The notes: generated from the letters alone by a model not told the origin. Shown: positions 1 to 17,949, numbered from the stretch's first letter. The stretch is 64,000 bases of DNA from an uncultured Chloroflexia bacterium (GCA_963783135.1 CAWAMH010000007.1:1044672-1108671), one strand, 5' to 3'. Made by a program: numbers and translations.

Positions 1-224
1 GGAGGGCCTCAGGGCTCGCCGCCGGGGCGTTCCATGTCCGGACCCAACCCGACCCTTCCGGACCCCACCGGTCGGCACGACGAGCGCCATCGGGCGGTGT
101 CCCGAGACACCACGAGGAGGTCGTCGGCCCTCGACACCCCCGGTACCGACGCCGACAATCGGCTGACCCGAAAGTACCGTCCGCGACGCCTGTCGGGAGC
201 CCCGTCGAGAAAGGTGAGCTGGGA

Positions 225-500
225 ATGACCATCGACGACCGACCGCCGGCCGGGCCGACCGCCCGGCCCGACGTGACCCTCCAGCGCGTGGGTCGCGAGG
301 CGATCCTCCACGACAGCCGGAACGGGCAGGCGCATGTCATCAACGGCACCGCCGCGCAGCTCTGGGAGCTGTGCGACGGGCGGCCGCACGATGAGCTCGT
401 CGCCGCCTTCGCCGCCGTCTACGGTCGCGAGCCGGAGACGGTCGCCGCCGACGTCGATCGGACACTCGCCGGGTTCGCCTCGCTGGGGCTGCTGGCTTGA
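225..500 (+). CDS. PqqD-family RiPP recognition element (RRE) / peptide chaperone
   Basis: 91 aa with the PqqD pattern (EAILHD...HVINGTAAQLWELCDG...YG...VAADVDRTLAGF..LGLL); AAGGTGAG upstream; stop overlaps next TTG start. Confidence 0.88.
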   Translation: MTIDDRPPAGPTARPDVTLQRVGREAILHDSRNGQAHVINGTAAQLWELCDGRPHDELVAAFAAVYGREPETVAADVDRTLAGFASLGLLA

Positions 501-1438
501 GTCCAGCCGGGGGGCAGGCCGAGGGTCCAGCGCCGAGCGACGGGGCGACCGCCGTCGCTCGCTACGACATCCACGGCGTCCAGCTCCTGGTCCGGTCCAA
601 CGACCCTGCAGTGCTTCGCCGGGTCCATGACACCTACGGCTGGTTCGCCGACACCGAGCGCCGGATGACCGGCCACGGCTCGCTGGCGACCGTGGAGGTC
701 GCCTTCGTGCGCGCCGCCGACGGCGGCGTCACGGTGATCGACGCGGAGGGCGAGGCCGTCCGGTGGGACGCGCGCGACGAGCCGCTCGTCGTCCTGTTCG
801 ACGCGATCGTGGCCGGAGTGATCGCCGCCCTGTCACGGATCGGCGTCCTCGCGATCCACGCGGGCGTGGTCGCCGACAACGGTCACGCGATCCTGGTGGC
901 CGGGCGGAGCGGGCGCGGCAAGACGACGCTGGTCCTCGGGCTGCTCCGGCGCGGACTCGACCTGCAGTCCGACGAACTGGCCCTGGTCGCCCAGGACGAC
1001 CGGACGATCCTCGCCTATCCTCGGGCCCTCCACATCCGGCCGGCGGCCCTCGACCTGTTCCCGGAGCTCGGCTTCCTGACCGCCGTCGAGCCGCACGAGC
1101 TCGGCGGTGGGAGCGAGTGGGCGGTCGGGCCGGCTGCCCTCCGACAGGCGTTCGATACCCGGCTCGTCGATGTGGCCCGGCTGTCCGCGGTGATCCTGCT
1201 CGATGGCGACCCCGTCGCGGACGCCGAGCCCGACCTCACGCCGGTCCGTCCGGCGATCGCGACGATGGAGCTCGTCCGCGGGACCCCGGCCGCCGCCTGG
1301 GAGTTCGACGCGGTGTTGTCCCGCCTGTCGCGCGTCGTCGGCGACATGCCGTGTGCGCGGATCCGGTCCGGACGCCTCGAGGACACGGTCGACGCGGTCC
1401 TGGCCTTCGCCGGCCAGACCGCCGGGGCCGCGCGATGA
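497..1438 (+). CDS. HPr kinase-related P-loop kinase (putative peptide kinase)
   Basis: IHAGVV...GRSGRGKTT Walker A followed by SDE.A motif typical of HprK-like kinases; coupled to both neighbours by overlapping stop/start. Confidence 0.8.
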   Translation: MSPAGGQAEGPAPSDGATAVARYDIHGVQLLVRSNDPAVLRRVHDTYGWFADTERRMTGHGSLATVEVAFVRAADGGVTVIDAEGEAVRWDARDEPLVVLFDAIVAGVIAALSRIGVLAIHAGVVADNGHAILVAGRSGRGKTTLVLGLLRRGLDLQSDELALVAQDDRTILAYPRALHIRPAALDLFPELGFLTAVEPHELGGGSEWAVGPAALRQAFDTRLVDVARLSAVILLDGDPVADAEPDLTPVRPAIATMELVRGTPAAAWEFDAVLSRLSRVVGDMPCARIRSGRLEDTVDAVLAFAGQTAGAAR

Positions 1439-2076
1439 CCGGCGTCGGTCCCTTCGGCGCGCCCGAGCGGGCCGGCCTCGAGGGCGAGGCACCCGCCGCC
1501 GACTCGCGGCGACTCGCGCGAGTGGCGTTGTTCGCGCGCTACCGGCGCGAGCGAACGGCCGCGTGGATCGAGGCGAGCGGACCGAGCATGCAGCCCACGA
1601 TCCACCCGGGCGATCGCCTCTTGGTCGCCTTCGGCCAGCGTCCCGAGCGGACGGGTCAGGTCATCCTGTGTGCGATCGACGGCGTGTTCGTCGCGCATCG
1701 GCTCGTGGCCCACCGGCTCGTCGCCGTCGGGGCGGACGCTCCCGTCGTCCGGCTCATCGCCAAGGGTGACGCGGAGGCACTGCCCGACCGGTCGATCGCC
1801 GTCGACGACGTCGTCGGCGTGATCCGGGCGATCCGGCGGAGCGACGGACGGATCGTGACCGCCGGACTCGACGACACCTCGGGCGCGATCGTCGCCCGCA
1901 TCTCGTGGTGGAGCGGCGCGGTGGCCCGTGTCGGTCGCCGGCTCACCCGCCATGCACCCGCGCGGACCGGGCGACCCGTGTCCACGACGCTACTCATCCT
2001 GTCCCGGGTCCCGACCCGGTTGATCACGGCACTCATGCCCTGGTTCGTCCAGGAGACTCGTGCGGAAGGGAGGTGA
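1435..2076 (+). CDS. S24/S26-family (signal peptidase I-like) peptidase, putative leader peptidase
   Basis: SGPSMQPTIHPGD (catalytic Ser box), VAHRL, KGDA; ATG at 1435 overlaps kinase stop (ATGA); no clear N-terminal TM helix. Confidence 0.78.
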   Translation: MTGVGPFGAPERAGLEGEAPAADSRRLARVALFARYRRERTAAWIEASGPSMQPTIHPGDRLLVAFGQRPERTGQVILCAIDGVFVAHRLVAHRLVAVGADAPVVRLIAKGDAEALPDRSIAVDDVVGVIRAIRRSDGRIVTAGLDDTSGAIVARISWWSGAVARVGRRLTRHAPARTGRPVSTTLLILSRVPTRLITALMPWFVQETRAEGR

Positions 2077-2082
2077 CCGGAT

Positions 2083-2184
2083 ATGGAATACGAGAGCCCC
2101 GAGATCATCGCCAGCTACGTCGAAGACGAGCTCGTGGAGGATGCCGCGGTCTGCACCCGCTACTGCGACTTCCAGATCAACTGA
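2083..2184 (+). CDS. Putative RiPP precursor peptide 1 (33 aa, MEYESPEIIASYVEDELVEDAAVCTRYCDFQIN)
   Basis: Translated by hand; GGAGGTGA RBS overlapping the peptidase stop; YxxP leader motif; paralog immediately downstream. Confidence 0.85.
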   Translation: MEYESPEIIASYVEDELVEDAAVCTRYCDFQIN

Positions 2185-2248
2185 TCCAGCGTGCCCATGA
2201 CCTGACCTGGCAGGCATCCAGGAATCCACTCGGAGGGAGGTGATACCT

Positions 2249-2359
2249 ATGGAGTACGAGAGCCCCGAGATCCTCGCCAGCTATGCTGAGGAGGAGCTCG
2301 TCGAGGATGCCGCGGTCTGCACCCGCTACTGCGACTTCCCGAACTTCTTGCACGGCTGA
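2249..2359 (+). CDS. Putative RiPP precursor peptide 2 (36 aa, MEYESPEILASYAEEELVEDAAVCTRYCDFPNFLHG)
   Basis: Translated by hand; GGAGGTGA RBS; near-identical to precursor 1 with several synonymous changes in this frame. Confidence 0.85.
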   Translation: MEYESPEILASYAEEELVEDAAVCTRYCDFPNFLHG

Positions 2360-2372
2360 CCGCCCACACCGT

Positions 2373-2420
2373 GATCCAGGGGCGGCCGGCGACACCCAGG
2401 TCCCGAGCCGCCCCTGGATC
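2373..2420 (+). terminator. Strong stem-loop downstream of precursor genes (mRNA stabiliser/attenuator)
   Basis: Perfect 14-bp inverted repeat GATCCAGGGGCGGC (2373-2386) / GCCGCCCCTGGATC (2407-2420); no U-tract. Confidence 0.55.
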
Positions 2421-2483
2421 CATCCCAGCGCTTCACCGATCGGACCCATCCCAGCGACCAGCGAGGACCGGCGCGCGCCTTCC

Positions 2484-3551
2484 ATGACCTACGCCATCGA
2501 GACCGAATCGCTCACGAAACGATTCCGGCCACTCCGGTCCTATCGCGACCTCGTCTCGCCGGCCCGCCGGGTCGAGCGGACCGCGGTCAGCGAGGTGAAC
2601 CTCCGGATCCCGCCCGGCCAGGTCTTCGGCCTGCTCGGCCAGAACGGCGCCGGTAAGACGACCCTCATCCGGATGCTCACCACCCTGCTCCTGCCGACGA
2701 CCGGGACGGCCCGGGTCGCGGGCTTCGATGTCGCCCAGGAACCGCACGCCGTGCGGGCCAAGATCGGCCTCGTGAGCGGCGACGAGCGCTCGTTCTACTG
2801 GCGCCTGACGGGCCGCCAGAACCTCGAGTTCTTCGCCGCTCTGCAGCACCTGCCGGCGGCGCTGACCCCCGGCCGGATCGCCGACCTCGCCGAGCGACTC
2901 GGGATCGCGGAGCACCTCGACCGGCCGTTCGGTCACCTGTCCACCGGTCAGCGCCAGAAGCTGGCGATCGCCCGCGGTCTGATGAGCGAGCCCGAGATCC
3001 TGTTCATGGATGAGCCGACCCGATCGCTCGATCCGATCTCGGCCGTGGCGATCCGCGAGTTCGTCGCCGAGCACATCGTCGGGGAGCTCGGCTCGAGCGT
3101 CGTCCTCGCGACCCACTCGATGCCCGAGGCGGAGGCGCTCTGCCGGAAGATCGCGTTCATCCAGGACGGCAGGATCGTGGCGGAGGGCTCCGTCGCCGAG
3201 CTGCGCCGGGCCATCGGCTATGGGATCCGCTGCGAGCTGCGTCTCGCACCGGGAGCCGGCACTGCGGGCGTCGACCTGGACCGCCTCCCGGGCGTGCTCG
3301 AAGTGCTGCCGGCCGCCGCCCCGATCGCCCCGTCGGCGAGCGAGCCGACCGAGCCAGGCCCGCTCGTCGTCCGGCTGACGCTGGCCGAGGAGGACGCCCT
3401 GGCCGGGATCCTGCGAGCACTCGTCGTGGCCGGCGCCGACGTCGTCGGTTGCGAGACCCGCGACCTGTCGCTCGAGGAGATCTACGTCCACACGCTCGCG
3501 GCGGGGGCGGCGGCCGCGCCTCGACTCGTCAGCCAGACGGTCGCTCGATGA
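2484..3551 (+). CDS. ABC transporter ATP-binding protein
   Basis: GQNGAGKTT Walker A, LSTGQRQK signature, ILFMDEPT Walker B, ATH switch; start placed at MTYAIETESL. Confidence 0.93.
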   Translation: MTYAIETESLTKRFRPLRSYRDLVSPARRVERTAVSEVNLRIPPGQVFGLLGQNGAGKTTLIRMLTTLLLPTTGTARVAGFDVAQEPHAVRAKIGLVSGDERSFYWRLTGRQNLEFFAALQHLPAALTPGRIADLAERLGIAEHLDRPFGHLSTGQRQKLAIARGLMSEPEILFMDEPTRSLDPISAVAIREFVAEHIVGELGSSVVLATHSMPEAEALCRKIAFIQDGRIVAEGSVAELRRAIGYGIRCELRLAPGAGTAGVDLDRLPGVLEVLPAAAPIAPSASEPTEPGPLVVRLTLAEEDALAGILRALVVAGADVVGCETRDLSLEEIYVHTLAAGAAAAPRLVSQTVAR

Positions 3552-4396
3552 CCGCCGCCACGGCCCGAAGCCCCCGCGGCGGCCTCGCGGTCGCGGCCCG
3601 CGTCCCGGTCGCGTTCTTCCGGCGCGATCGGATCATCGAGACCAGCTACCGGGCGGGGTTCGTCCTCCGGCTCGGGAGCAGCCTCGTCACCGTGCTGGTG
3701 TTCTTCTTCATCAGCCACGCCTTCGGGGCGGCGGTATCGACCCAGATCCAGACCAACGGCGCCGGCTACTTCGCGTTCGTGATCGTCGGCGTGGCCCTGT
3801 CCGAGTTCCTGTCGATGTCGGTCGGCGGGATCGGCGGCAGCCTGCGCGAGAGCCAGACGACCGGGACGCTGGAGCTCATGCTCCTCAGCCCGACGCGGCT
3901 GTCGGTGCTCATGACCTCCTCGGCGCTCTGGCTCCAGGTCTCGGCCGCGATCGGCGCGGTCACCTACCTCGTGGCCGGCGCCCTGCTCGGGGCGGACTTC
4001 TCACACGCCGATGTGTTCGCGACGGCCGGCGCCATGGTCGTCACGATGATCGGCTTCACCGGCATGGGCCTGCTCGCCGGCGCGGTGGTCATCGTGATCA
4101 AGCGCGGCAACCCGGTCGGCTGGCTGCTCCGCGGCGCGTCGGTGGTTCTCGGCGGTGTGTTCTACCCGACCGAGATCCTGCCGCCGCTGCTCCAGGCGCT
4201 CGGCCAGCTGCTGCCGATGACCCACGCCCTCGTGATCCTGCGGGGATCGATCTTCCTGGGCCTCGGCATCAACGACATGCTCCCCCAGTTCGTCGCGCTC
4301 GTCCTGACGAGCTTCTTCTACTACGGCCTCGGCCTGTTCGCCTGTGCGACCGCGATCCGCTACGCGCGGACCGACGGCAGCCTCGCGCAGTACTGA
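3548..4396 (+). CDS. ABC-2 type exporter permease
   Basis: Six hydrophobic segments, ESQTTGTLELMLLSP, GGVFYP..LP..LQ...LLPMTH; ATGA overlap with ATPase. Confidence 0.9.
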   Translation: MTAATARSPRGGLAVAARVPVAFFRRDRIIETSYRAGFVLRLGSSLVTVLVFFFISHAFGAAVSTQIQTNGAGYFAFVIVGVALSEFLSMSVGGIGGSLRESQTTGTLELMLLSPTRLSVLMTSSALWLQVSAAIGAVTYLVAGALLGADFSHADVFATAGAMVVTMIGFTGMGLLAGAVVIVIKRGNPVGWLLRGASVVLGGVFYPTEILPPLLQALGQLLPMTHALVILRGSIFLGLGINDMLPQFVALVLTSFFYYGLGLFACATAIRYARTDGSLAQY

Positions 4397-4407
4397 GGCC
4401 GGGCCCG

Positions 4408-5542
4408 ATGCGCCGCGTGGCGGACCTCGACCGCGAGACGCAGGCGATCTGCCTCGGGGCGCGGACCGTCGTCGACCCACCCGCGGCCGCCGCCCTGGGC
4501 GGGCTCGTCCGGGGCGGTCTCGACTGGGATCGGATGTGGGATCTCGGCCACCGCCACGACGTCCTGCCGCTGCTCGCCGAGACCCTGCCTCCGGCGGCCG
4601 CCGCGGCCGGTGGGGCCGTCCCGGGAGAATGGCTCGAACGGGCCACCCGGCGCCGGCACGTGACGCTGCTCAAGAACGCGCGGATGGCCGATGCCCTCCA
4701 GACCGTGCTCGCCAGGCTCGGCGAGGCGGACGTGCCGGCGATCCCGGTCAAGGGACTCGTCCTGGCCGAGAGCCTGTACGGGACGCTCGCGGCTCGCGGC
4801 GCGGCCGATCTCGACGTGCTCGTCCAGCCGGCGGACCTCGACGCCGCGCGCCGGGTCCTGGTCGAGGTCGGCTACCGTCAGCGGCCCGATCCCACGTTCA
4901 CCGCACTCGTCCACGAATTCCACGACCCGCCCGTGGTACGTCCCGGCCGGCAACGAGATGGTCCGGCTCGAACTCCATCGCGACCTGTGGGCGGACCGGT
5001 TCTTCCGGTCGGACGCGGAGGGGCTCTGGGCGCGCTCGGTCGAGGGCACGCTCCTTGGCCGGCCGACCCGGCTGCTGTCGTGGGAGGACACGCTCATCCA
5101 TCTCGCGATCCATCGCAGCCGGTCGCCGCTCCGGCTGCGCTGGGTGTGCGACATCGCCGAGCTGCTGCGACGCCATGGCGACGAGCTCGACTGGGACGCG
5201 GTCGCCGTCCGCGCCGAGCGCGTCGGGGCGCGGACCTCGACCTGGGTCGTCCTGTCGATGGCCGAGCGGTTCCTCGGCAGCGCACCGCCGGCCGGGACGC
5301 TCGAACGGTTCCGGATCGGGCGGGCGAAAGCGACGCTCCTCGAGCGGACGTGTGGCGGCGAGGCGACCTTCCGGGCCGCGCCGCCCGGCGACACCGACCA
5401 GACGCCGCATCTCACGCTGCGGGTCTTCGAGCAGGACGGCGCGGGTCAGATCGCCCGGGCGCTGGGCTCGAGCATCCGCCGGTCGACCCGCCGGATCCTC
5501 CACGAGGCCGGCATCCGCCGGGTCCGCCACGACCCGACCTGA
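4408..5542 (+). CDS. Nucleotidyltransferase family protein (NTP_transf_5-like), split by a +1 frameshift near 4930
   Basis: N-half VKGLVLAESLYG...R...DLDVLV in ORF 4408; C-half LELH...LIHLAIH...LRWVCDIAELL...LDWD in ORF ending 5542; removing one C in GACCCGCCCGTGG joins them. Confidence 0.82.
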
Positions 5543-6641: not shown

Positions 6642-7712
6642 TCAGCCCGCCATCGCCCCCGGCACGATCCGGCCGTCGGAGTCGACGATCGCCCGGCGAC
6701 GGGCCGCCCGGAGCTCGGCGCCCGGGACCTGGTCGCGGGCGTGGTAGCTCGAGCGCACGAGCGGACCCGATTCGACGTGTCGGAACCCGAGCGCGAGGGC
6801 CTCGGCCTTCATCTCCGCGAACTCGTCCGGGTGGTAGTAGCGCTCGAGCGGCAGATGCGCGAGCGACGGCCGCAGGTACTGGCCGATCGTGAGGATGTCG
6901 ACATCGGCCGTCCGGAGCGCCGTGAACGCCTCGGTCAGCTCCGGGCGTGTCTCGCCGAGACCGACCATCAGGCTCGACTTGGTGTGGACCGGGTAGCCGA
7001 TGTCCTCGGCCATGGCCTTGGCCCGCTCGAGGACGTACAGGCTGCGCTCCCAGCGGGCGCGCTTGCGGACCGGCTTCTGAAGCCGGCGGACCGTCTCGAG
7101 GTTGTGGTTGAGGATGTCGGGTCGGGCGTCCATGACCGTCCGGAGCCGGTCGTCCGAGCCGTCGAAGTCCGGGATGAGGACCTCGATGCCCATCCCCGGA
7201 CAGGCCCCCCGAAGCCGGCCGATGGTCTCGGCGAAGATGCGCGACCCACCGTCCGGCAGGTCGTCGCGGGCCACGCTCGTGATGACGACGTGCTCGAGCC
7301 CCAGGGCGGCCACCGCTTCGGCGACGCGCCGTGGCTCGTCGTCATCGAACCAGGTCGGCCGGCCCGTCTTGACCGCGCAGAACCCGCACGCCCGGGTGCA
7401 GGTGTCGCCGAGGATCATGATCGTCGCGGTCCGCTGGTCCCAGCACTCGCCGATGTTCGGGCAGTGGGCCTCCTCGCAGACCGTGTTCAGGGACAGGCCC
7501 CGGAGCAGGCCCTTGAGCTCGTGGTAGTTGTCGCCGGACGGGATCCTCGCCCGGATCCAGTCGGGATGACGGCGGAGCGGGATCGAGCCATCGCTGGCCG
7601 GACCGATCGAACCGCCACCGAGCGCGATCGTGGCCGGCAGGGCGACGACGCCGTCGGCGGCTCCGTGCGCGTGGCCGGTGGGTGGGTCGAACATCGGGAG
7701 CTCGCGGGCCAT
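6642..7712 (-). CDS. lipA: Lipoyl synthase (radical SAM)
   Basis: CEEAHCPNIGEC, CTRACGFC and RSSYHA motifs; start at MARELP. Confidence 0.96.
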   Translation of the reverse strand: MARELPMFDPPTGHAHGAADGVVALPATIALGGGSIGPASDGSIPLRRHPDWIRARIPSGDNYHELKGLLRGLSLNTVCEEAHCPNIGECWDQRTATIMILGDTCTRACGFCAVKTGRPTWFDDDEPRRVAEAVAALGLEHVVITSVARDDLPDGGSRIFAETIGRLRGACPGMGIEVLIPDFDGSDDRLRTVMDARPDILNHNLETVRRLQKPVRKRARWERSLYVLERAKAMAEDIGYPVHTKSSLMVGLGETRPELTEAFTALRTADVDILTIGQYLRPSLAHLPLERYYHPDEFAEMKAEALALGFRHVESGPLVRSSYHARDQVPGAELRAARRRAIVDSDGRIVPGAMAG

Positions 7713-7737
7713 GGCTGGGAGTGTACGCGCGGCCGGA

Positions 7738-8709
7738 TCAGCCCGCGAGGAGCGTGTCCTGGAGTCCCGCCTCGAGCCCGCGCGGGTCGAACCCGAGGTC
7801 CCGCCCGGCCTTGGCGTGCGACGCCCAGTAGGTGACCCCATCACCCGCCTTGATCACCTCGCCGAGATCGGCCGGGATCCCGAACCGTCCGCCGAGCAGT
7901 CCGGACAGCGGCGCCATGATCCGCAGGAACGCCGTCGGCACCGTCAGCCGCGGCAGTGGTCGCTCACCGAGCCTGGCCGCGATCTCGAGGACCTCGATCG
8001 ACCGCGCCGGCTCTCCAGCCAGCACGTAGGACTCGCCGCTCCGTCCTCGATCGAGGGCGGCGATGATGCCACCGGCCAGGTCGTCGACGTGGACGAAGCA
8101 CGCCCCGACATCGGTCAGCGCAAGGGTCCGCAGCGTGCCCTTGAAGGCAGCCCCGAACTGGACACCGAGGGCGCTGTGGTCGCCCGGTCCGTAGACCTGA
8201 CCGGGCATGACGATGACGATCGGCGCACCGGCCTCGATCCGTGCCTCGGCGACGAGGTGGGCTCGGTATTTCGTGTCGTCGTACCAGCTCAGGAACCCGT
8301 CCCGACGATCTCGGCGATAGGTCTCGTCGACGACCGCGCCGTGGGTGTCGCCGAAGACTCCGACCGTCGACACGTCGACGATCCTGGGGACCGCGGCCAA
8401 GATCGCCGCATCGAGGGTCCTGGCCGTCGCACCGACGTTGGCGTCCTCCATCGCCGGACGCTCGTCCCGCCGGATCCCGATCCGATACATGCCCGCGGCA
8501 TGGATGATCGAGTCGCAGCCGGCCATGAACCCGGTCAGCTCGGCGGTGGAGGACAGGTCCGTCCGGACCAGCCGGCAGCCCAGCTCGCCCAGGGCGCGAG
8601 CTCGGTCGGGATCACGGACGGCCGCGATGACGTCGTCGCCGCGGGCACGGAGCGCGCGAACGACCGCCGAACCCACGAACCCGGCGCCGCCGGTGACGAA
8701 GACACGCAT
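7738..8709 (-). CDS. NAD-dependent epimerase/dehydratase (extended SDR)
   Basis: VTGGAGFVG Rossmann motif, YDDTK catalytic motif, VYGPGD. Confidence 0.88.
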   Translation of the reverse strand: MRVFVTGGAGFVGSAVVRALRARGDDVIAAVRDPDRARALGELGCRLVRTDLSSTAELTGFMAGCDSIIHAAGMYRIGIRRDERPAMEDANVGATARTLDAAILAAVPRIVDVSTVGVFGDTHGAVVDETYRRDRRDGFLSWYDDTKYRAHLVAEARIEAGAPIVIVMPGQVYGPGDHSALGVQFGAAFKGTLRTLALTDVGACFVHVDDLAGGIIAALDRGRSGESYVLAGEPARSIEVLEIAARLGERPLPRLTVPTAFLRIMAPLSGLLGGRFGIPADLGEVIKAGDGVTYWASHAKAGRDLGFDPRGLEAGLQDTLLAG

Positions 8710-8739: not shown

Positions 8740-10167
8740 TCAGTAGATGGCGGTCTCGGGTCCGACCGCCTCCAGCCAGGCCTTGACGGTTCGCAGGAAC
8801 GCGGCGCCGCCGGCGCCGTCGTTCGCCCGATGATCGATCCCCAGGACCATGTTCATCACCGGGCGGATCGCGATCGCGTCACCCGTCGGCGACTCGACGA
8901 CGACCGCTCGCTTCGTGATCGCCTCCATCGTGAGGATGGCGACCTCCGGCACGTTGATGATCGGCATCGTCAGGTTCGAGCCAAGCCAGCCGGTGTTGTC
9001 GATGGTGAATGTGCCCCCACCGAAGTCGTCGAGCCGGAGCTTGCCGGCCCGGGCTCGGGCCGCGACATCGGCGATGGCCCGGTTCAACCCGGCGATCGAC
9101 AGCGCGTCGACGTCGCGGACGACCGGCACGATGAGGCCATCGTCGACGGCCACGGCGACCCCGACGTTGACCCGGCGCTTGGCCAGCAGCCCGGCGTCGG
9201 TCCAGTGGGCGTTGAACTCGGCGTGGCGACGCAGGGCCTCGACGCTCGCCTTCACGACGAACGGGACGTAGCTGAGCGACAAGCCCTCTCGAGCCTGGAA
9301 GTCGCGCTTCGCCGACTCGCGCAGCCGGACGAGGTTCGTGGCGTCGACCTCCATCGAGACGTACGCGTGCGGCACGGCCAGCGCCCGGGTCATCTGGGCG
9401 CTGATGCCCTTGCGCATCTGGGTCATCGGGACGAGGACCTCGTCCGCGCCGGGCGGGAACTCGATCGACGACGACGGGCTCGGGGTCGCGGCGCGCGGGC
9501 TGCCGGTCACCGGCGTCGTCGGCGGCGGCGCGGCCGAGGGGGCACCCTGGGCACCGACCGGCTGGCCGGTCCGGACGGACTCGACGTGGTCGATGACGTC
9601 CTCGCGGGTGATCCGCCCCCCGCCGCCCGTGCCGACGATCTGGGCGGCAGTGAGTCCGTGCTCTCGGAGGAGCCGACGGACCGCCGGCGTCATCCGGGCG
9701 TCGGGGTCGCCGCGGAGCTCCGTCGTCTCCGAGCCGGCGGCCATCGGGACCGCCGTCGGCGTGGCCGGGACCGGTCGCTCGTCCGACCCGGCCGGGCCGT
9801 TCGCGGCGGCCGGCGGCGCCGGCGGCTGCTGGGCGATCGTCAGCGCCGCCGCTTCCCGGGCCGCAGCCCCCGGGTCGCTCGCGGGCGCCGGAGCCGCAGC
9901 GTCGGCAGCGGCGCTGTCGGACGGCGCTGCGTCGCTCGTCTCGATGACCGCGATCTCGGCGTTGTTCGGGACCGTCTCGCCCTCCTCGACGAGGATCTCG
10001 GTCAGCGTGCCCTCGAACGGCGAGGGGACCTCGGCGTTGACCTTGTCGGTGATGACCTCGAGGAGCGGCTCGTAGCGCGCGACGTGGTCGCCGGGCTGCT
10101 TGAGCCATTTCCCGATCGTCCCCTCGGCGACGCTCTCACCGAGCTGGGGCATGGTCACCTTGGCCAC
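8740..10167 (-). CDS. 2-oxoacid dehydrogenase E2, dihydrolipoamide acyltransferase
   Basis: MPQLGESV...TDKVNAEVPSP lipoyl domain, TPAVRRL...GTGGGGRIT E3-binding domain, DHRANDG catalytic motif; GTG start with GGAGGA RBS. Confidence 0.93.
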   Translation of the reverse strand: MAKVTMPQLGESVAEGTIGKWLKQPGDHVARYEPLLEVITDKVNAEVPSPFEGTLTEILVEEGETVPNNAEIAVIETSDAAPSDSAAADAAAPAPASDPGAAAREAAALTIAQQPPAPPAAANGPAGSDERPVPATPTAVPMAAGSETTELRGDPDARMTPAVRRLLREHGLTAAQIVGTGGGGRITREDVIDHVESVRTGQPVGAQGAPSAAPPPTTPVTGSPRAATPSPSSSIEFPPGADEVLVPMTQMRKGISAQMTRALAVPHAYVSMEVDATNLVRLRESAKRDFQAREGLSLSYVPFVVKASVEALRRHAEFNAHWTDAGLLAKRRVNVGVAVAVDDGLIVPVVRDVDALSIAGLNRAIADVAARARAGKLRLDDFGGGTFTIDNTGWLGSNLTMPIINVPEVAILTMEAITKRAVVVESPTGDAIAIRPVMNMVLGIDHRANDGAGGAAFLRTVKAWLEAVGPETAIY

Positions 10168-10260
10168 GTGTCGGTCCTCCGGGGGGCGCGCTGCGAGGCG
10201 GCGAACAGGGCGGGTGTCATCGACGGATAGTGTCGCGCATCTGGCGGTGTCGCACCACCG

Positions 10261-13146
10261 ATGGCGGACCGCACCCGCGGGGTAGCATCGGGCGACGTGA
10301 GCCGCCTCCTTCGAGTCCTCGGCGTCCGCCCCGACGAGCTTCGGCTGGTCGCGCGGCTGGCCGCGGTCTTCGCCACGGTCGAGGCGGCCCGCGGCGTGGG
10401 CGAGATCGGCGCGGACACGCTGGTCCTCGGGCAACTCGGGCCGGGCTTCCTGCCCTATCTGTACGTCGGCCTCGGGCTCACGAGCCTGGTCGCCGCGCTG
10501 GCGTTCGGTGCCGCGGTGGGCCGGCTGCCGCGACGTCGCCTGTTCGTCGCCGTGATCGGGGGCGGCGCCGCGATCCTGGCCGCCGAGCGGGTCTTGCTCA
10601 TCAACGGGTCGGGCGCCGTGATCCCCGTCGTGTGGCTCACGGTGTATGTGATCGGCAGCCTCATCGGCACGCTTGTCTGGGCGCTCGCCGGCTGGGTGCT
10701 CGACGCCCGCCAGGCGAAGCGGCTGTTCCCGCTATGCGCCAGCGCCGCGATCCTCGGCGGCTTCGTCGGGATGATCTCGGCGGGCCCGCTGGCCCGAGCC
10801 GGCGGCACGGACGACCTGATCCTCGTCCAGGCCGTGCTCCTCGGCGTCGGCGCCTGGCTGACGTGGGGTGTCAGCCGCGCCGGGCGGACATCGACCGGAC
10901 GGCATCGCCCGCGGTCGATCACGGCCGAGCTGCGGATCGGCTTCGACCATGTCCGGATGTCGCCGCTCATGCGCCTGATCGCGGTCGCCTACGTCCTGTT
11001 CGCGATCCTGTTCTTCTCGGTGTCCTATCCGTTCCTGACCGAGATGACTGCGGCGTTCCCGGCCGAGGCCGACCTGGCGACGGCGCTCGGGCTGTTCAGC
11101 GCCGCCACGACGGCCGTGTCGTTCCTGGTCGCCGTGCTGCTCGCCAACCGGCTGTTCGCCCGGTTCGGCATCGCCTCGGTCGCGCTCGTCCTGCCGGTGG
11201 TCTACCTGGCCGGCTTCGGTGTCTGGTTCGTTCGGTTCGGGCTGGCGACGGCGGTCGGCTTCCGGTTCGTCCAGCAGGTGACCCAGCGAGGCGTCTCGAA
11301 CGCGGCCTGGAGCGCCTTCTACAACGTCGTCCCGAGCGACCGACGAGCCCAGGTCCTCGCGTTCATGGACGGCGTCCCAGGCCAGCTCGGGATCGCCCTG
11401 GCCGGCCTGCTCCTGCTCGCGGCCGGCGACCTGCTGTCGCAGTCGATGACGTTCGTCCTCGGGGCGGTCGCCGCGGTCGCGCTGACCTGGGTGGTGTTGC
11501 GCATCCGCGGCGCCTACGCGGACAGCCTGCTGCGGACGCTGCGCGAAGGACTCGCCGAGCAGCTCCTCGAAGGCGGGCCGGGTCTCATCGGGCTCGGCAG
11601 CGATCCGAAGGTCATCGCCGCGTTGCGGGTCGGGCTCAGCGAGCCGAACGCGGGCGTCCGCCGCCTGTCGGTCGACCTCCTCGGCCGACTGGCCGCGACC
11701 GACGCGGCCGATGCCGTGACCGCACTCCTCGACGACCCGGTCCCGGATGTCCGGGCCGCGGCGATCCGGGCGCTGGCGGCGATGCACCGGCCGCTGCGGC
11801 CGGACACGGTCGACCGGCTCGCGGAGGATCCCGACCCGACGGTCCGGGCCGAGCTCGCCGTCGTCCTGATCGCGAGCGCGGATCCTGATCGAGGCCGGTC
11901 CCTGCTCGGGGCCCTGGTCCACGGGCCGGACGTCCCCGCGCGGGTCGCGGGTCTCGAGGGCTGCGCCCGATCCGGCGAAGGCGCGCCTCGGGACTGGATC
12001 TTCGATGGGCTCGCCAGCGAGACGCCCGAGGTCCGGGCCGCCGCCGTCCGTCTGCTCGCGGCTCAGCCGTACGCCGCCGACAGTGCCCTGGCCGATCTCG
12101 TCCGCTGCCTGGACGACGACTCGGCGATGGTCCGGAGCGCCGGGACCCGGGCGTTGGAAGCGATCGGGCCGGCGGGGCGGAGCCGCGCGCTCGAGGTCCT
12201 GCGGTCCGGCAGCGAACGGGCCCAGACCGCGGCGCTCGGCGTGCTCGACGGTCATCCCGAGGAGGTCAGATCCGAGCTCGTCCCGTGGGCGGTCGTCCAG
12301 GTCGATCGGGCGGCCGACATCCGCACCTGGCGCCGCGCGCTGGCGGCTCGGCCCGACCTGCCGGAGGGCGACGACGACGCGCTGCTGGCGTTCCTCGATT
12401 CCGTGTTGGCCGAGCGCGGGTCGCGGATCGACGATCGGCTCGTCCATGCCCTCGCGATCCTCGGCGCGCCGGACGACGGCGCGATGATCCGTCGTTGCCT
12501 GCGCTCCGACGATCCGGAGACCAGGGCGATGGCCATCGAGGCGCTCGACAGCCTGGGCGAGCGACGACTGAGCCGGGCCGTCGTCCATCTCCTCGAGGGC
12601 GAGCCCGACGACCGACCGTCGAGTACAGTCGAGACGCTCCGGACGTTGAGCGACGATCCGGACCCGTGGATCCGGGCGCTCGCCCGGCGGATCGCCGGTT
12701 CGGACTCGGAGGGACGGATGCCGGACACGACTGACACGCTCGATGGGATCGCCAGGATGCTCGTCCTCCGCCGGGTCCCGCTGTTCAGCGAGCTCGCGCC
12801 CGAGGACCTCCAGCGGATCGCCGCGGGGGCCACGGAGCACCTCTATCCGGCCGGAGAGGCGCTCGTCCGCGAGGGTGAGCCGGGCCAGGAGATGGTCGTC
12901 ATCGTCGAGGGCTCCGTCCGGGTCGTCCGAGCCACCGGCGAGTACGTTCGGTCGTATGCCGCGGGCGATCACATCGGCGAGCTCGCCGTGCTTCGTGAGC
13001 AGCCCCGGGCAGCCACGGTCGTCGCCGACGGCGACGTCCGCGGGTTGATCATCGACGGCGTGGGCCTCAAGGCCATCCTGCGCGAGCGTCCGGAGGCCGC
13101 GATGGCGATGCTGGCGACGCTGGCCGAGCGGATCGGCACGGCCTGA
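10261..13146 (+). CDS. MFS/Npt1-like membrane domain + HEAT repeats + C-terminal cyclic-nucleotide-binding domain
   Basis: About 12 TM segments with DARQAKRLFP; repeated DPxPxVRAAA HEAT units; VPLFSEL...GELAVL...PRAATV cNMP fold; alternative GTG start at 10297. Confidence 0.82.
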   Translation: MADRTRGVASGDVSRLLRVLGVRPDELRLVARLAAVFATVEAARGVGEIGADTLVLGQLGPGFLPYLYVGLGLTSLVAALAFGAAVGRLPRRRLFVAVIGGGAAILAAERVLLINGSGAVIPVVWLTVYVIGSLIGTLVWALAGWVLDARQAKRLFPLCASAAILGGFVGMISAGPLARAGGTDDLILVQAVLLGVGAWLTWGVSRAGRTSTGRHRPRSITAELRIGFDHVRMSPLMRLIAVAYVLFAILFFSVSYPFLTEMTAAFPAEADLATALGLFSAATTAVSFLVAVLLANRLFARFGIASVALVLPVVYLAGFGVWFVRFGLATAVGFRFVQQVTQRGVSNAAWSAFYNVVPSDRRAQVLAFMDGVPGQLGIALAGLLLLAAGDLLSQSMTFVLGAVAAVALTWVVLRIRGAYADSLLRTLREGLAEQLLEGGPGLIGLGSDPKVIAALRVGLSEPNAGVRRLSVDLLGRLAATDAADAVTALLDDPVPDVRAAAIRALAAMHRPLRPDTVDRLAEDPDPTVRAELAVVLIASADPDRGRSLLGALVHGPDVPARVAGLEGCARSGEGAPRDWIFDGLASETPEVRAAAVRLLAAQPYAADSALADLVRCLDDDSAMVRSAGTRALEAIGPAGRSRALEVLRSGSERAQTAALGVLDGHPEEVRSELVPWAVVQVDRAADIRTWRRALAARPDLPEGDDDALLAFLDSVLAERGSRIDDRLVHALAILGAPDDGAMIRRCLRSDDPETRAMAIEALDSLGERRLSRAVVHLLEGEPDDRPSSTVETLRTLSDDPDPWIRALARRIAGSDSEGRMPDTTDTLDGIARMLVLRRVPLFSELAPEDLQRIAAGATEHLYPAGEALVREGEPGQEMVVIVEGSVRVVRATGEYVRSYAAGDHIGELAVLREQPRAATVVADGDVRGLIIDGVGLKAILRERPEAAMAMLATLAERIGTA

Positions 13147-16848: not shown

Positions 16849-17933
16849 CAGCCGGCATCTCCGGCGCGGTTCTGGCCGGTGCCCCACGGCGGCGGGCCCT
16901 CCGACGGCCAATCCTCGGCGTAGACCCAGTCCATCGCCGTCGACGGATCCGGGTCCGGCTCGCCCTCGGCGAACTCGGTCGCGTCCTCGACGAGCCCGGA
17001 GAGCTCGGCCACGAGGGCCTCCTCGATCGGGCCGGTCAGGACGCCGGCCGCGCGGAGCTGGTCGCGGAAGTGGGGCAGCGCGTCGCGGCCCTTCTCCTCG
17101 GCCAGCTCCTCCTCGGAGCGGTACTTCGTCTGTTGGTCGTCCGAGGAGTGCCCGGTCAGCCGGGTGACCTTCGCCTCGATGAGCGTCGGGCCCTCGCCGG
17201 CTCGTGCCCGGGTGACGGCAGTTCGAGCCGCCGCATAGCAGGCCAGCACGTCCGAGCCGTCGACGACGACGCCAGGGATGCCGTAGCCGGCCGCTCGCAT
17301 CGCGACGTCGGGGACCGACACCTCGCGCACGGCTGGGACGCTGATCGCGTAGCCGTTGTTCTCGACCAGGAAGACGAACGGCAGCTTGTGGATCGCGGCG
17401 AAGTTGAGGGCCTCATGGACATCGCCCTGGTTCGACGAGCCCTCGCCCATCGCCGCGAGGGCGACCTGGCCCGTGCCCCGGATCTTCGCCGCGAGGGCGA
17501 TCCCGACGGCATGGAGGATCTGGGTCGCCACCGGCGAGCTGACCGACAGGAGGTTGTGCCGTCGATCGCCGTAGTGGCCCGGCATCTGGCGGCCGCCCGA
17601 CGACGGATCCGATGCCTTGGCGTACTGCGCCAGCATGATGTCGCGCGGGCTCATCCCGAAGGTCAGGCACATCGCGATCGAGCGATAGAACGGCGCGATC
17701 CAGTCGTGGCCCTTCTCGAACGCCCAGGTGACCCCGACCTGCGCGCCCTCGTGGCCCTGGCCGCTGATCACGAACGGGATCCGTCCGGCGCGATTGAGGA
17801 TCCACATCCGCTCGTCCACCGCCCGGGCGAGCGCCACCATCCGGAACATCGCGATGAGATCGTCATCGGTCAGGCCGAGGTCCGCCCCGAACCGGCTCGT
17901 CGCCGTCGCCTTCGCGGGGTCGGTGGCCGTCAT
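16848..17933 (-). CDS. 2-oxoacid (branched-chain type) dehydrogenase E1 alpha subunit
   Basis: GRIPFVISGQGHEGAQ, GEG...N ThDP motif (GEGSSNQG...ENNGYAIS), GHSSDD. Confidence 0.93.
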   Translation of the reverse strand: MTATDPAKATATSRFGADLGLTDDDLIAMFRMVALARAVDERMWILNRAGRIPFVISGQGHEGAQVGVTWAFEKGHDWIAPFYRSIAMCLTFGMSPRDIMLAQYAKASDPSSGGRQMPGHYGDRRHNLLSVSSPVATQILHAVGIALAAKIRGTGQVALAAMGEGSSNQGDVHEALNFAAIHKLPFVFLVENNGYAISVPAVREVSVPDVAMRAAGYGIPGVVVDGSDVLACYAAARTAVTRARAGEGPTLIEAKVTRLTGHSSDDQQTKYRSEEELAEEKGRDALPHFRDQLRAAGVLTGPIEEALVAELSGLVEDATEFAEGEPDPDPSTAMDWVYAEDWPSEGPPPWGTGQNRAGDAG

Positions 17934-17949
17934 CTCGGCTCCGTCGCTG

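What the first reader, a model, noticed from the sequence alone, without database searches (positions are those of the whole stretch)
225..5542. Candidate new RiPP system: RRE + HPr-like kinase + S26 peptidase + twin precursors + ABC exporter + nucleotidyltransferase, with no known class-defining enzyme
Seen: eight co-oriented genes, most with overlapping or near-adjacent stops and starts, centred on two tiny paralogous ORFs missed by the ORF track. Known: PqqD-like RREs bind YxxP-type leaders. HprK-like kinases and this nucleotidyltransferase family are tailoring enzymes in paeninodin/pseudomycoidin-type lasso clusters, and also occur in the uncharacterised HPr-rel-A and SynChlorMet cassettes. 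Here no lasso cyclase, transglutaminase-like B2 protease, radical SAM/SPASM, YcaO or LanB/C/M accompanies them, and an S26 peptidase occupies the protease role. Inference: kinase plus nucleotidyltransferase may be the primary chemistry, giving an exported phospho- or nucleotidyl-phospho-peptide. Caveat: only 224 bp upstream are visible, and frame 1 is open from the window edge to 228.
Basis: partly seen in the sequence, partly recalled or inferred. Interest (0 to 1): 0.92.

Follow-up and report, generated by a model that had tools for sequence, protein, structure and literature searches.

The report
LPP-like phosphopeptide gene cluster in Chloroflexota
This is a real gene cluster for small ribosomal peptides that are probably phosphorylated, trimmed and exported; it has the same architecture as a peptide class first described in 2026 in a different bacterial phylum, but with different precursors.

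Summary
[quoted passage not shown] Directly upstream, outside the window, lie a second kinase and peptidase, four more precursors and a SufR-like regulator. There is no lasso cyclase, B2 protease or SPASM gene there or anywhere in the 86%-complete genome. The cassette is syntenic in 15 other loci, nearly all from Chloroflexota MAGs, which together hold 46 precursors. These share a conserved YExP leader, an invariant [E/D]-A-A, a near-invariant Tyr and a hypervariable 4-10 aa tail.

The "new RiPP system" claim is superseded. Popov et al. (Nat Commun, May 2026) described the same five-function architecture as Linear Polyphosphorylated Peptides (LPP). They showed kinase-dependent polyphosphorylation of core Ser3 and leader removal by the signal-peptidase-like enzyme.

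This family differs from LPP in five ways:
- It lies outside Bacillota, although the authors call LPP Bacillota-restricted.
- Its precursors are short and multi-copy.
- It uses an ABC-2 exporter.
- It has duplicated kinase and peptidase genes.
- It lacks a conserved Ser acceptor; 9 of 45 cores have no Ser or Thr, leaving only Tyr.

Verdict: a new variant of a known kind, of moderate interest.

The parts
131..159 (+). sigma-70-like promoter match upstream of the RRE gene (weak)
   Evidence: One search found one site (TCGACA-17-GACAAT) at L076 1117-1145, which is window 131-159. Shuffles gave a mean of 0.1 sites. This is a consensus match only.
225..500 (+). discrete PqqD-type RiPP recognition element (RRE), 91 aa; the only copy in the genome
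   Evidence: Families: PF05402, E 8.9e-14; TIGR04353, 36.5 bits against a cut-off of 35. The family profile A2 hits the lasso RREs TbiB1 (2.6e-5) and TfuB1 (4.8e-4), and LppB (9x8z) at 0.084. N40 and D76 are invariant in 13 sequences. It is the single copy in the genome.
497..1438 (+). HprK-like P-loop kinase ('KinW', 313 aa, TTG start overlapping the RRE stop)
   Evidence: Families: TIGR04352, E 1.4e-13 at 50.6 bits, below the 200-bit cut-off. The precomputed Pfam label is PF27840, named 'ScmC'. The AF2 model has pLDDT 88 and a PEPCK / HprK-P fold. The P-loop G136-T144, H121 and D159/E160 are invariant in 15 sequences.
1435..2076 (+). S26B (Sec11/SipW-type) signal-peptidase-like leader peptidase ('PepW', 213 aa)
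   Evidence: PF00717, E 2.3e-7. S51, H88 and D112 are invariant in 18 sequences. The family profile's best PDB hits are SEC11C (1.7e-9) and SEC11A (4.4e-9), against bacterial SPase I (0.025) and LexA/UmuD (about 0.05).
2083..2184 (+). precursor peptide W1 (33 aa)
   Evidence: Seen. It is 82% identical to W2 and has a GGAGG Shine-Dalgarno sequence. A peptide with the same last 15 residues occurs in L014.
2249..2359 (+). precursor peptide W2 (36 aa; alternative GTG start at 2240)
2484..3551 (+). ABC transporter ATP-binding subunit (DrrA-like)
   Evidence: TIGR01188, E 3.9e-70; PF00005. It is syntenic in 13 of 15 related loci, and a 14th (L011) is cut by the contig end.
3548..4396 (+). ABC-2 type permease
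   Evidence: PF01061, E 1.8e-11. Syntenic in related loci.
4408..5542 (+). NTP_transf_5 nucleotidyltransferase, split by a +1 frameshift in the CCC run at 4930-4932
   Evidence: Both halves hit PF14907, E 6.8e-25 and 1.2e-22. They abut without loss of residues against 11 intact homologues. Contigs of relatives about 96% identical lack one base at 4930. The intact L003 homologue gives PF14907 E 5.8e-50. Its AF2 model has pLDDT 91 and is closest to ANT(2'')-Ia and LnuA.

Best explanation
This is a RiPP biosynthetic cluster of the LPP (linear polyphosphorylated peptide) type, in a deeply divergent Chloroflexota form.

Proposed pathway:
1. The single RRE binds the conserved Y-E-x-P-E-[IV]-[IL] strand of each 32-38 aa precursor. 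This genome has six precursors.
2. The RRE presents them to the HprK-like kinases (two old paralogues, KinU and KinW). These phosphorylate, perhaps repeatedly, a hydroxyl in the conserved segment A-V-[S/C/A]-x-x-Y.
3. The cytoplasmic Sec11/SipW-type Ser-His-Asp peptidases (PepU, PepW) remove the leader at the invariant [E/D]-A-A. The cut is most likely [E/D]-A|A, mirroring LPP's F-E-T|A-Q-S.
4. The nucleotidyltransferase adds a further group to the phosphate or a hydroxyl.
5. The DrrAB-like ABC-2 pump exports linear peptides of about 10-16 aa, whose hypervariable tails carry the specificity.

Status of each step:
- Shown here: gene content, homology, catalytic residues, synteny and precursor conservation.
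- Shown by others for the Bacillota system only: phosphorylation and cleavage.
- Inferred: the acceptor residue, the cleavage bond, the NTase product and the biological role.
For: Gene families and catalytic residues.

Synteny in the 15 related loci:
- RRE, kinase, peptidase and at least one precursor in 15 of 15.
- Exporter and NTase in 13 of 15. L011 is cut at the contig end; L015 is a partial cassette.

Precursors:
- 46 precursors; 44 of 46 have a Shine-Dalgarno sequence.
- Column entropy is 0-2.9 bits (most columns under 2.2) up to the Tyr, and 3.2-3.6 bits in the tail columns that follow.
- Among the four U-type paralogues, codons 2-27 differ by 37 synonymous and 21 non-synonymous changes. 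The pairs are not independent.

No competing class-defining enzyme was found.

Published experiments on the same architecture (PMC13381572, sections 6, 7 and 11):
- Deleting lppK abolishes the +80 Da series.
- Deleting lppS abolishes leader removal.
- LppS needs the RRE, and has the catalytic residues S29/H68/D93. Here the invariant residues are S51/H88/D112.

Complex prediction for RRE + precursor + PepW gave weak support.
- ipSAE was 0.47 (runs 0.42, 0.47, 0.47); the best of 3 controls was 0.00.
- That mark was reached by 58 of 80 solved complexes and 2 of 110 mismatched pairs.
- A score of 0.60 or below occurred in only 7 of those 80 and in both passing mismatches.
- The runs agree in at least 73% of contacts, and partner pLDDT is at least 74.
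- My own alignments were used, and a 3-chain job is unlike the calibration set.

The NTase fold is closest to O-nucleotidylyltransferases.
Against: - No chemistry was measured for this family.
- LPP's acceptor, Ser3, is not conserved. The matching position is S 23, C 14, A 8 of 45 precursors, and 9 of 45 putative cores have no Ser or Thr at all. LppK did not accept Thr or Tyr at that position.
- The LPP precursor motif Px9Fx[T/A] is not met.
- The exporter is an ABC-2 pair, not MsbA-like.
- The RRE family profile scores LppB (0.084) worse than the lasso RREs TbiB1 and TfuB1.
- The kinase sits nearer the 'HprK-related kinase A / ScmC' families. I could not fetch LppK, LppS or LppN, so direct sequence kinship with LPP enzymes is untested.
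- The window's NTase is frameshifted.
- The -3 position before [E/D]-A|A is variable and often charged, which is unusual for signal peptidases.
Confidence: 0.72

Rival explanations
1. The parts list is the same but the chemistry differs, so this would be a RiPP class of its own. The HprK-like enzymes act on the near-invariant Tyr, giving O-phospho-, polyphospho- or nucleotidyl-Tyr. Alternatively they use ATP to activate a group for ring closure with the frequent Cys or Ser. Under either version the products are not LPP-like phospho-Ser peptides.
For: - Tyr is present at the conserved position in 44 of 45 precursors.
- 9 of 45 cores have no Ser or Thr.
- The position matching LPP Ser3 is S/C/A and switches within single kinase clades.
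- The kinase is only remotely related to characterised HprK-like RiPP kinases.
- The NTase resembles enzymes that nucleotidylate hydroxyls.
Against: - No HprK-family enzyme is known to me to phosphorylate Tyr (recalled, not searched).
- LppK rejected the S3Y variant.
- No nucleophile position is conserved for a ring.
- The Tyr could simply be a recognition residue for the kinase or the peptidase.
Confidence: 0.18
2. Leader-cleaved but otherwise unmodified secreted peptides (pheromone- or bacteriocin-like). The kinase-like and NTase proteins would serve as scaffolds or act on another substrate.
For: - Many paralogous precursors with hypervariable tails sit next to a dedicated exporter.
- Related ScmC-family proteins occur beside radical SAM enzymes, where they need not be the modifying enzyme (L071).
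Against: - The P-loop and the Asp/His catalytic-type residues are invariant in 15 kinases.
- The NTase D-x-D motif is conserved.
- Both enzymes are retained in 13 of 15 loci.
- In LPP the kinase is catalytically required.
Confidence: 0.06
3. A decayed remnant of a paeninodin-like lasso peptide cluster that lost its cyclase and B2 protease.
For: - RRE, HprK-like kinase and NTase are the tailoring set of paeninodin- and pseudomycoidin-type lasso clusters (PMC8498205, passages).
- The RRE profile's best solved relatives are lasso B1 proteins.
- The NTase is frameshifted in this assembly.
Against: - The cyclase-free cassette is conserved with intact genes in 15 other loci across several lineages.
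- The genome has no Asn_synthase-family or Transglut_core3 gene (85.9% complete).
- The putative cores are 10-16 aa and have no conserved acidic residue at positions 7-9.
- The frameshift is absent from relatives about 96% identical.
Confidence: 0.03

Closest known systems
Linear Polyphosphorylated Peptides (LPP; lpp cluster of Paenibacillus alginolyticus DSM5050; Popov et al., Nat Commun 2026, PMC13381572)
   Same: - The same five core functions: discrete RRE, HprK-like kinase, archaeal/ER-type signal peptidase I with a Ser-His-Asp triad, NTP transferase, exporter.
- YxxPx[V/I][L/I] leader.
- An acidic residue at -2 and Ala at +1 of the likely cut site.
- No cyclase.
- Patchy distribution: 80 of 9173 Bacilli genomes for LPP, against 5 of 301 genomes of this class here.
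   Different: - Phylum: Chloroflexota, plus two MAGs labelled Actinomycetes. The authors write that LPP is 'restricted to the Bacillota'.
- Precursors of 27-54 aa (45 of the 46 are 27-38 aa; L013's poly-Gly one is 54 aa), 1-7 per locus (6 here), against 35-200 aa in 1-3 copies.
- Px9Fx[T/A] motif and conserved Ser3 are absent.
- ABC-2 two-gene exporter instead of MsbA-like.
- Two kinase and peptidase paralogues with one RRE in 5 of 16 loci.
- The RRE is not specifically close to LppB.
Paeninodin / pseudomycoidin-type phosphorylated lasso peptide clusters
   Same: RRE (B1), an HPr-kinase homologue that (poly)phosphorylates the precursor, and a nucleotidyltransferase that decorates the phosphate (PMC8498205, passages).
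   Different: - No macrolactam cyclase or B2 protease here.
- The acceptor there is the C-terminal Ser; only 5 of 46 precursors here end in Ser.
- The leader protease here is a serine S26B enzyme.
HPr-rel-A system (NCBIfam TIGR04352 / TIGR04353), uncharacterised
   Same: - The RRE passes the TIGR04353 cut-off (36.5 against 35).
- The kinase's best NCBIfam hit is TIGR04352.
- Its nearest ESM Atlas clusters are 'HprK-related kinase A' (score 0.98).
   Different: - The kinase scores 50.6 bits against a cut-off of 200.
- The distant HprK-like loci from Sphingomonas and Allosphingosinicella (L045, L049, L055, L063, L066) gave no S26 peptidase hit in my tblastn. That these loci represent the HPr-rel-A system is my assumption.
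SynChlorMet cassette (ScmC/ScmD with radical SAM/SPASM ScmE/F)
   Same: The kinase carries the Pfam 38.1 label PF27840 'ScmC'. There are weak hits to ScmC and ScmD.
   Different: - No radical SAM/SPASM partner. The only rSAM nearby is housekeeping LipA at 6642-7844(-).
- Scores are far below cut-off (20.5 against 125; 17 against 100).
SipW / Sec11 (family S26B signal peptidases)
   Same: The SMxP...HR...KGD motifs and the Ser-His-Asp triad. The best solved relatives are SEC11C and SEC11A.
   Different: - No N-terminal membrane anchor; instead an amphipathic N-terminal helix region.
- Genetically coupled to an RRE and kinase.
- The substrate is a 33-aa cytoplasmic peptide rather than a secretory preprotein.

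Membership tests
LPP (Popov et al. 2026) | Archaeal-type signal peptidase I (Ser/His/Asp) encoded in the cluster as leader peptidase | tested here: met
   S51/H88/D112 are invariant in 18 sequences. The profile's best PDB hits are SEC11C/A at 1.7e-9 and 4.4e-9. PepU hits TIGR02228 at E 1.1e-8 and PepW at 1.0e-5, both below cut-off. Peptidase activity itself was not tested.
LPP (Popov et al. 2026) | Discrete RRE, HprK-like kinase and NTP transferase co-located, with no macrolactam cyclase or B2 | tested here: met
   The genome has no PF00733 or PF13471 gene. Whether LppN is a PF14907 protein is not stated in the sections I read.
LPP (Popov et al. 2026) | MsbA-like exporter | tested here: not met
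   The exporter is a DrrA-like ATPase plus a separate ABC-2 permease.
LPP (Popov et al. 2026) | Precursor motif YxxPxVLxHQxIxFETxxS / Px9Fx[T/A] | tested here: not met
   Only YxxPx[IV][ILV] is shared. Here the pattern is P-x10-L-x-x-[E/D]-A-A, with S/C/A at the position matching Ser3.
LPP (Popov et al. 2026) | Kinase-dependent polyphosphorylation of core Ser3, and RRE-dependent leader cleavage | not testable with these tools
   This needs expression and mass spectrometry. Complex prediction for peptidase + RRE + precursor gave only weak support.
LPP (Popov et al. 2026) | RRE belongs to the LPP clade / Bacillota | tested here: inconclusive
   Profile A2 scores LppB (9x8z) at E 0.084, against TbiB1 at 2.6e-5. 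No joint tree was possible, because the LPP sequences could not be fetched. The loci come from Chloroflexota MAGs.
Lasso peptide (paeninodin-like) | Asn-synthetase-like macrolactam cyclase and transglutaminase-like B2 protease | tested here: not met
   There are 0 hits for PF00733 and PF13471 in the whole genome (85.9% complete). None was found among the neighbours scanned in own and distant loci.
Lasso peptide (paeninodin-like) | Core with Gly/Ala/Ser/Cys at position 1, an acidic residue at 7-9 and a threaded tail | tested here: not met
   No conserved acidic position exists, and the tails beyond it are 0-4 aa where one is present.
HPr-rel-A system (NCBIfam) | Kinase above the TIGR04352 cut-off and PqqD protein above the TIGR04353 cut-off | tested here: inconclusive
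   The RRE scores 36.5 against a cut-off of 35 (met). The kinase scores 50.6 against 200 (not met).
SynChlorMet cassette | ScmC and ScmD together with the radical SAM/SPASM proteins ScmE/F | tested here: not met
   ScmC scores 20.5 against 125 and ScmD 17 against 100. There are 0 SPASM hits in the genome.

The most novel reading that the evidence does not exclude
The Chloroflexota family is not merely LPP in another phylum. It would be a distinct class in which an HprK/PEPCK-fold kinase targets the near-invariant Tyr of an A-V-[S/C/A]-x-x-Y module, and a conserved ANT/Lnu-like nucleotidyltransferase caps it. The products would be exported (poly)phospho- or nucleotidyl-phospho-tyrosine peptides of about 12 aa with hypervariable tails. 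This would be the first Tyr-directed HprK-type RiPP kinase. Paired kinase/peptidase paralogues (U and W) would each be matched to their own precursor subtype.
Probability: 0.25. Interest if true: 0.8.

Novelty: new variant of a known kind. Interest (0 to 1): 0.52.

Why it matters
LPP is a six-month-old RiPP class. Its final product, NTase function and biological role are unknown, and its authors describe it as confined to Bacillota.

This family matters for four reasons:
- It shows the same five-function architecture in soil Chloroflexota. About 80 kinase homologues exist in 5.8 billion proteins, and the kinase occurs in 5 of 301 genomes of the class.
- Its precursors are much smaller and simpler, with predicted cores of 10-16 aa.
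- It is a natural experiment on acceptor choice. Nine cores have Tyr as their only hydroxyl.
- Two co-resident kinase/peptidase pairs share one RRE.

These features make the open LPP questions easier to address with synthetic peptides: what the NTase adds, how leader cleavage is coupled to phosphorylation, and what sets substrate specificity. The family also widens the known range of signal-peptidase-type leader peptidases in RiPP biosynthesis.

Tried and rejected
- **Lasso reading.** Rejected: there is no cyclase or B2 protease in the neighbourhood or the genome, and the cores are unsuitable.
- **Radical SAM reading.** Rejected: the only nearby rSAM is LipA, next to an E2 acyltransferase on the other strand, and the genome has 0 SPASM hits.
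- **Extra conserved genes.** All-against-all clustering of ORFs from 16 loci found nothing shared beyond the cassette, apart from flanks syntenic within one lineage. The output is noisy because of overlapping frames in high-GC DNA.
- **Neighbours in distant loci.** Ten immediate neighbours were scanned in 5 distant loci. None belonged to a RiPP enzyme family. I had 82 flank ORFs listed and scanned only 10 of them.
- **Direct comparison with LppK, LppS and LppN.** Not possible: no tool fetches by accession. A peptidase-profile search returned no Bacillota-named proteins (best 120 of 188 listed). Only LppB could be compared, through the PDB.
- **Supplements of PMC13381572.** These were closed, so I could not check Supplementary Data 1 and 2 or Supplementary Fig. 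1. They may list non-Bacillota hits or the Pfam identity of LppN.
- **Expression.** No RNA holder was listed.
- **Frameshift in the same strain.** Contigs identical to the window (X5, X6) do not cover position 4930. Whether the frameshift is real in this strain therefore stays open.
- **Terminators.** The scan found none.
- **Kinase tree outgroups.** L018 and L020 are long branches placed unreliably, so I draw no rooting from the tree.
- **YcaO and LanB/C/M.** Not searched genome-wide. They are absent only from the ORFs I scanned.
- **Literature searches for prior description.**. Only PMC13381572 describes this architecture. Nothing was found on PF27840, PF14907 in RiPPs, HPr-rel-A, or a Chloroflexota/Limnocylindria version.

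Full report
**Observation.** The window is 64-76% G+C over its first 12 kb. It lies at G000:C7:1044672-1108671, in a 3.4-Mb, 8-contig assembly that is 85.9% complete. The eight co-oriented genes of the finding are present:
- RRE, 225-500: PF05402, E 8.9e-14; TIGR04353, 36.5 bits against a cut-off of 35.
- HprK-like kinase, 497-1438: TIGR04352, E 1.4e-13 but only 50.6 of the 200 bits required.
- S24/S26 peptidase, 1435-2076: PF00717, E 2.3e-7.
- Two small ORFs, 2083-2184 and 2249-2359.
- DrrA-like ABC ATPase, 2484-3551.
- ABC-2 permease, 3548-4396.
- NTP_transf_5 gene in two frames, 4408-5542. Its halves match profile positions 3-121 and 137-249 of 249.

Four-base start/stop overlaps at 497-500, 1435-1438 and 3548-3551, and gaps of 6 and 11 nt, fit one operon.

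The 20 kb upstream (L001) hold no cyclase or radical SAM gene. Instead they hold a second module, in L001 coordinates (window = L001 minus 20000):
- A SufR-like ArsR-type regulator at 16914-17630: TIGR02702, E 3.2e-25, below cut-off; PF01022.
- A second kinase, 'KinU', at 17852-18799: 45% identical to the window's kinase.
- A second peptidase, 'PepU', at about 18792-19364: 38% identical to the window's peptidase.
- Four more precursors at 19371-19472, 19531-19632, 19701-19799 and 19871-19972.

Further upstream lie an acyl-CoA dehydrogenase on the other strand, a sortase, DUF1015 and a hydrolase. Downstream lie adenosine deaminase, lipoyl synthase LipA, an epimerase and an E2 acyltransferase, all on the minus strand. 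The frame open from the window edge to 228 is the spacer between the fourth upstream precursor and the RRE gene. The genome has one RRE of this kind, two kinases, two peptidases and six precursors, and no other copy elsewhere.

**What the proteins are.**
- *Peptidase.* It is not a LexA/UmuD-type S24 enzyme. In an 18-sequence alignment the invariant residues are G49, S51, M52, P54, G74, H88, R89, G111 and D112. The family profile's best solved relatives are human SEC11C (1.7e-9) and SEC11A (4.4e-9). Bacterial signal peptidase I scores 0.025, and LexA/UmuD about 0.05. It is therefore a Ser-His-Asp S26B ('archaeal/ER-type') signal peptidase homologue. It has an N-terminal amphipathic segment rather than a membrane anchor.
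- *Kinase.* It keeps the P-loop (G136-T144), H121 and D159/E160 in 15 sequences. Its profile hits HprK/P only around the P-loop (3.8e-4). It folds confidently (pLDDT 88, pTM 0.84) into the PEPCK / HprK-P fold. Precomputed labels and the ESM Atlas place it in Pfam 38.1 PF27840 'ScmC' and 'HprK-related kinase A'.
- *NTase.* The intact homologue from L003 matches PF14907 end to end (E 5.8e-50). It folds at pLDDT 91, and its catalytic domain is closest to the O-nucleotidylyltransferases ANT(2'')-Ia and LnuA (E about 1e-3, TM 0.6-0.67 on the target).

**Comparative genomics.** The kinase has about 84 close homologues (E below 1e-25) among 5.8 billion proteins. All are metagenomic, and the named ones are 'Candidatus Limnocylindrales'. 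The peptidase family is of similar size.

A genome-collection scan with the kinase alignment gave 70 loci. Fifteen of them (L003-L017) carry kinases 38-74% identical. They come from MAGs titled Chloroflexia, Chloroflexota, Ca. Limnocylindrales, Kouleothrix, Roseiflexaceae and Ca. Ribeiella, plus two 'uncultured Actinomycetes'. In these 15 loci:
- RRE, kinase, peptidase and at least one precursor occur in 15 of 15.
- Both ABC genes and the NTase occur in 13 of 15. L011 ends inside the ATPase gene. L015 has only RRE, kinase and peptidase, with one atypical precursor.
- The regulator occurs in 9 of 15.
- The NTase sits upstream of the RRE in the three Roseiflexaceae loci.
- L003, L004, L014 and L017 have the two-module layout of this genome.

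A kinase tree separates a W clade and a U clade, each with starred support, so the two modules are old paralogues. The outgroups are long-branched and give no reliable root.

Clustering of all ORFs from the 16 loci found no further family shared beyond lineage-specific synteny. Ten immediate neighbours in five distant loci belong to no RiPP enzyme family. The whole genome has no Asn_synthase-family, Transglut_core3 or SPASM match. In a sample of the same class, 5 of 301 genomes including this one carry the kinase at E of 1e-20 or better. The distribution is patchy.

**Precursors.** The 16 loci hold 46 precursors.
- 42 start with ATG.
- 44 of 46 have GGAG/GAGG/AGGA at -18..-4, against 641 of 5100 random windows.
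- In the 45 aligned (L013's poly-Gly one was left out), M1, Y3, E4, P6, Y12, L17 and A21 are invariant. A10, E16, A22 and Y27 are at least 90% conserved.
- Column entropy is 0-2.9 bits up to the Tyr, then 3.2-3.6 bits in the 4-10 residue tail.
- The pattern is M-x-Y-E-x-P-E-[IV]-[ILV]-A-[ST]-Y-x-E-x-E-L-x-x-[ED]-A-A-V-[SCA]-x-x-Y-[GC...]-tail.
- Among the four U-type copies, codons 2-27 differ at 37 synonymous and 21 non-synonymous codons. The pairs are not independent.
- W1 shares its last 15 residues (the conserved module and tail) with a precursor in L014.

**Literature.** Full-text searches found one directly relevant paper, PMC13381572 (Popov et al., Nat Commun, 20 May 2026). I read its abstract and outline, sections 6, 7, 8, 11, 12, 16 and 35, and term passages. 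Its supplements were closed.

The paper defines Linear Polyphosphorylated Peptides. [quoted passage not shown] There are 1-3 precursors of 35-200 aa carrying YxxPxVLxHQxIxFETxxS.

In Bacillus subtilis the authors showed the following:
- One to four phosphates are added to core Ser3, and this depends on lppK.
- S3T and S3Y variants are not modified.
- The leader is cleaved after T-1, and this depends on lppS and, in vitro, on LppB.
- Deleting lppN has no effect.

The final product and its role are unknown. The authors write that LPP and paeninodins 'are restricted to the Bacillota'. For lasso systems, a review states two things (PMC8498205, passages only). HPr-kinase homologues (poly)phosphorylate the C-terminal Ser of paeninodin-type precursors. 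The pseudomycoidin nucleotidyltransferase adds one or two hexoses to that phosphate.

**Comparison with LPP.**

Same:
- All five functions.
- The S26B Ser-His-Asp peptidase.
- The YxxP leader.
- An acidic residue at -2 and Ala at +1 of the probable cut (x-E-A|A-V-S here, F-E-T|A-Q-S in LPP).
- Absence of a cyclase.
- Patchy phyletic pattern.
- The RRE keeps an invariant Asn and Asp 36 residues apart (N40, D76). In LppB, N33 and D70 hold the Pro kink and the Tyr hydroxyl. I did not see a residue-level alignment to LppB, so this is a lead and not a test.

Different:
- Phylum.
- ABC-2 pair instead of MsbA-like.
- Short multi-copy precursors.
- Px9Fx[T/A] motif absent.
- The residue matching Ser3 is S 23, C 14, A 8 of 45, and 9 of 45 putative cores contain no Ser or Thr.
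- The RRE profile scores LppB at 0.084, PbaB1 at 0.029, PqqD at 0.0019, TfuB1 at 4.8e-4 and TbiB1 at 2.6e-5.
- Kinase and peptidase are duplicated around one RRE.

I could not obtain the LppK, LppS or LppN sequences. Common descent and independent assembly therefore remain unresolved.

**Mechanism.** The most likely pathway is the LPP one: RRE-guided phosphorylation by the HprK-like kinases, RRE-assisted leader removal by the S26B peptidases at [E/D]-A|A, a further NTase-dependent decoration, and ABC-2 export of linear peptides of 10-16 aa.

A three-chain prediction (RRE, precursor, peptidase as the scored partner) gave weak support.
- ipSAE was 0.47 (runs 0.42, 0.47, 0.47), with the best of three controls at 0.00.
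- The mark was reached by 58 of 80 solved complexes and 2 of 110 mismatches.
- At 0.60 or below it was reached by only 7 of those 80, and by both mismatches that passed.
- The runs agree in at least 73% of contacts, and partner pLDDT is at least 74.
- No contacts were reported. My own alignments were used, and the job is unlike the calibration.

The acceptor is the main open point. In this genome S24 or T25 (U type) and T25 (W type) are available. Across the family, only Tyr27 is a conserved hydroxyl downstream of the RRE-binding strand. Position 19 is Ala in U-type precursors and Glu in the W-type precursors of the loci that also encode a W-type peptidase. This hints at paralogue-specific recognition near the cut site.

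**The NTase frameshift.** The two halves abut at ...H-D-P | P-W-Y... with no residue lost relative to 11 intact homologues. The break lies in the CCC run at 4930-4932. Short-read contigs from soil-metagenome runs X1 and X2 are about 96% identical to the window. Their differences are 35 and 45 over 1034 and 1158 bases. Both lack exactly one base at 4930. The gene is therefore intact in close relatives. Whether the extra base here is a real mutation or an assembly error is undecided. The related long-read MAG loci L014 and L017 also show several frame breaks.

**Rivals.**
- Same parts, different chemistry (Tyr-directed, or ATP-activated ring closure): 0.18.
- Unmodified secreted peptides: 0.06.
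- A decayed lasso cluster: 0.03.

The evidence for and against each is given in the Rival explanations section.

**Verdict.** The mechanistic reading is largely right. The claim of a new RiPP system is overtaken by the 2026 LPP paper. What is left is a new, deeply divergent variant of that class outside Bacillota, with small multi-copy precursors and probably a different acceptor residue. Interest is moderate. It would be high if the Tyr-directed reading holds.

Noticed in passing
L071 8261-11075 (Thermodesulfovibrionales MAG): A different cassette pairs a radical SAM gene, a 64-aa ORF with a Y-E-K-P-R-L leader motif, an HprK-like protein and an S24/S26 peptidase. The kinase-like plus S26-type peptidase pair therefore recurs with other RiPP chemistries. 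S26-type peptidase hits also sit beside HprK-like genes in L056, L059, L068 and L069.
   Followed up: partly
L025 9426-9557 and L027 3995-4120 (Chloroflexota / Anaerolinea MAGs): A conserved small ORF of about 42 aa with a Y-Q-T-P-T-L motif lies between an RRE and an HprK-like kinase. It looks like another uncharacterised RRE-plus-kinase peptide family.
   Followed up: no
L001 16914-17630 (window -3086 to -2370): A SufR-like regulator (ArsR-type wHTH with a Cys-rich C-terminal part; TIGR02702, E 3e-25, below cut-off) sits at the 5' end of the cluster. It does so here and in 9 of 15 related loci, with no suf genes beside it. It may be a redox- or Fe-S-sensing regulator of the cluster.
   Followed up: partly
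L013 2994-3155: One Roseiflexaceae precursor ends in a run of 23 Gly followed by Ser, after the conserved A-V-C-V-V-Y-G-P module. This is either an odd core or an assembly artefact.
   Followed up: no
window 1690-1735: The W-type peptidase carries a tandem A-H-R-L-V A-H-R-L-V repeat around the catalytic His. L005's orthologue shares it; the U-type peptidase does not.
   Followed up: no
window 6642-7844 (-): The only radical SAM gene near the cluster is lipoyl synthase LipA (TIGR00510, 357 bits). It lies next to a 2-oxoacid dehydrogenase E2 gene at 8740-10434(-). It is housekeeping and not part of the cluster.
   Followed up: yes
L001 11841-15621: A 795-aa ORF with no Pfam or NCBIfam match is followed by a sortase-domain gene. 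This may be a sortase and its surface substrate. The pair is syntenic in the related Limnocylindria-type loci.
   Followed up: no
L010 13561-14298 and L012 13702-14439; L010 5928-8297: In the Roseiflexaceae loci a conserved 246-aa ORF without a Pfam match follows the permease. A 790-aa LTD + DUF11 protein precedes the NTase. Whether either belongs to the cluster is unknown.
   Followed up: partly
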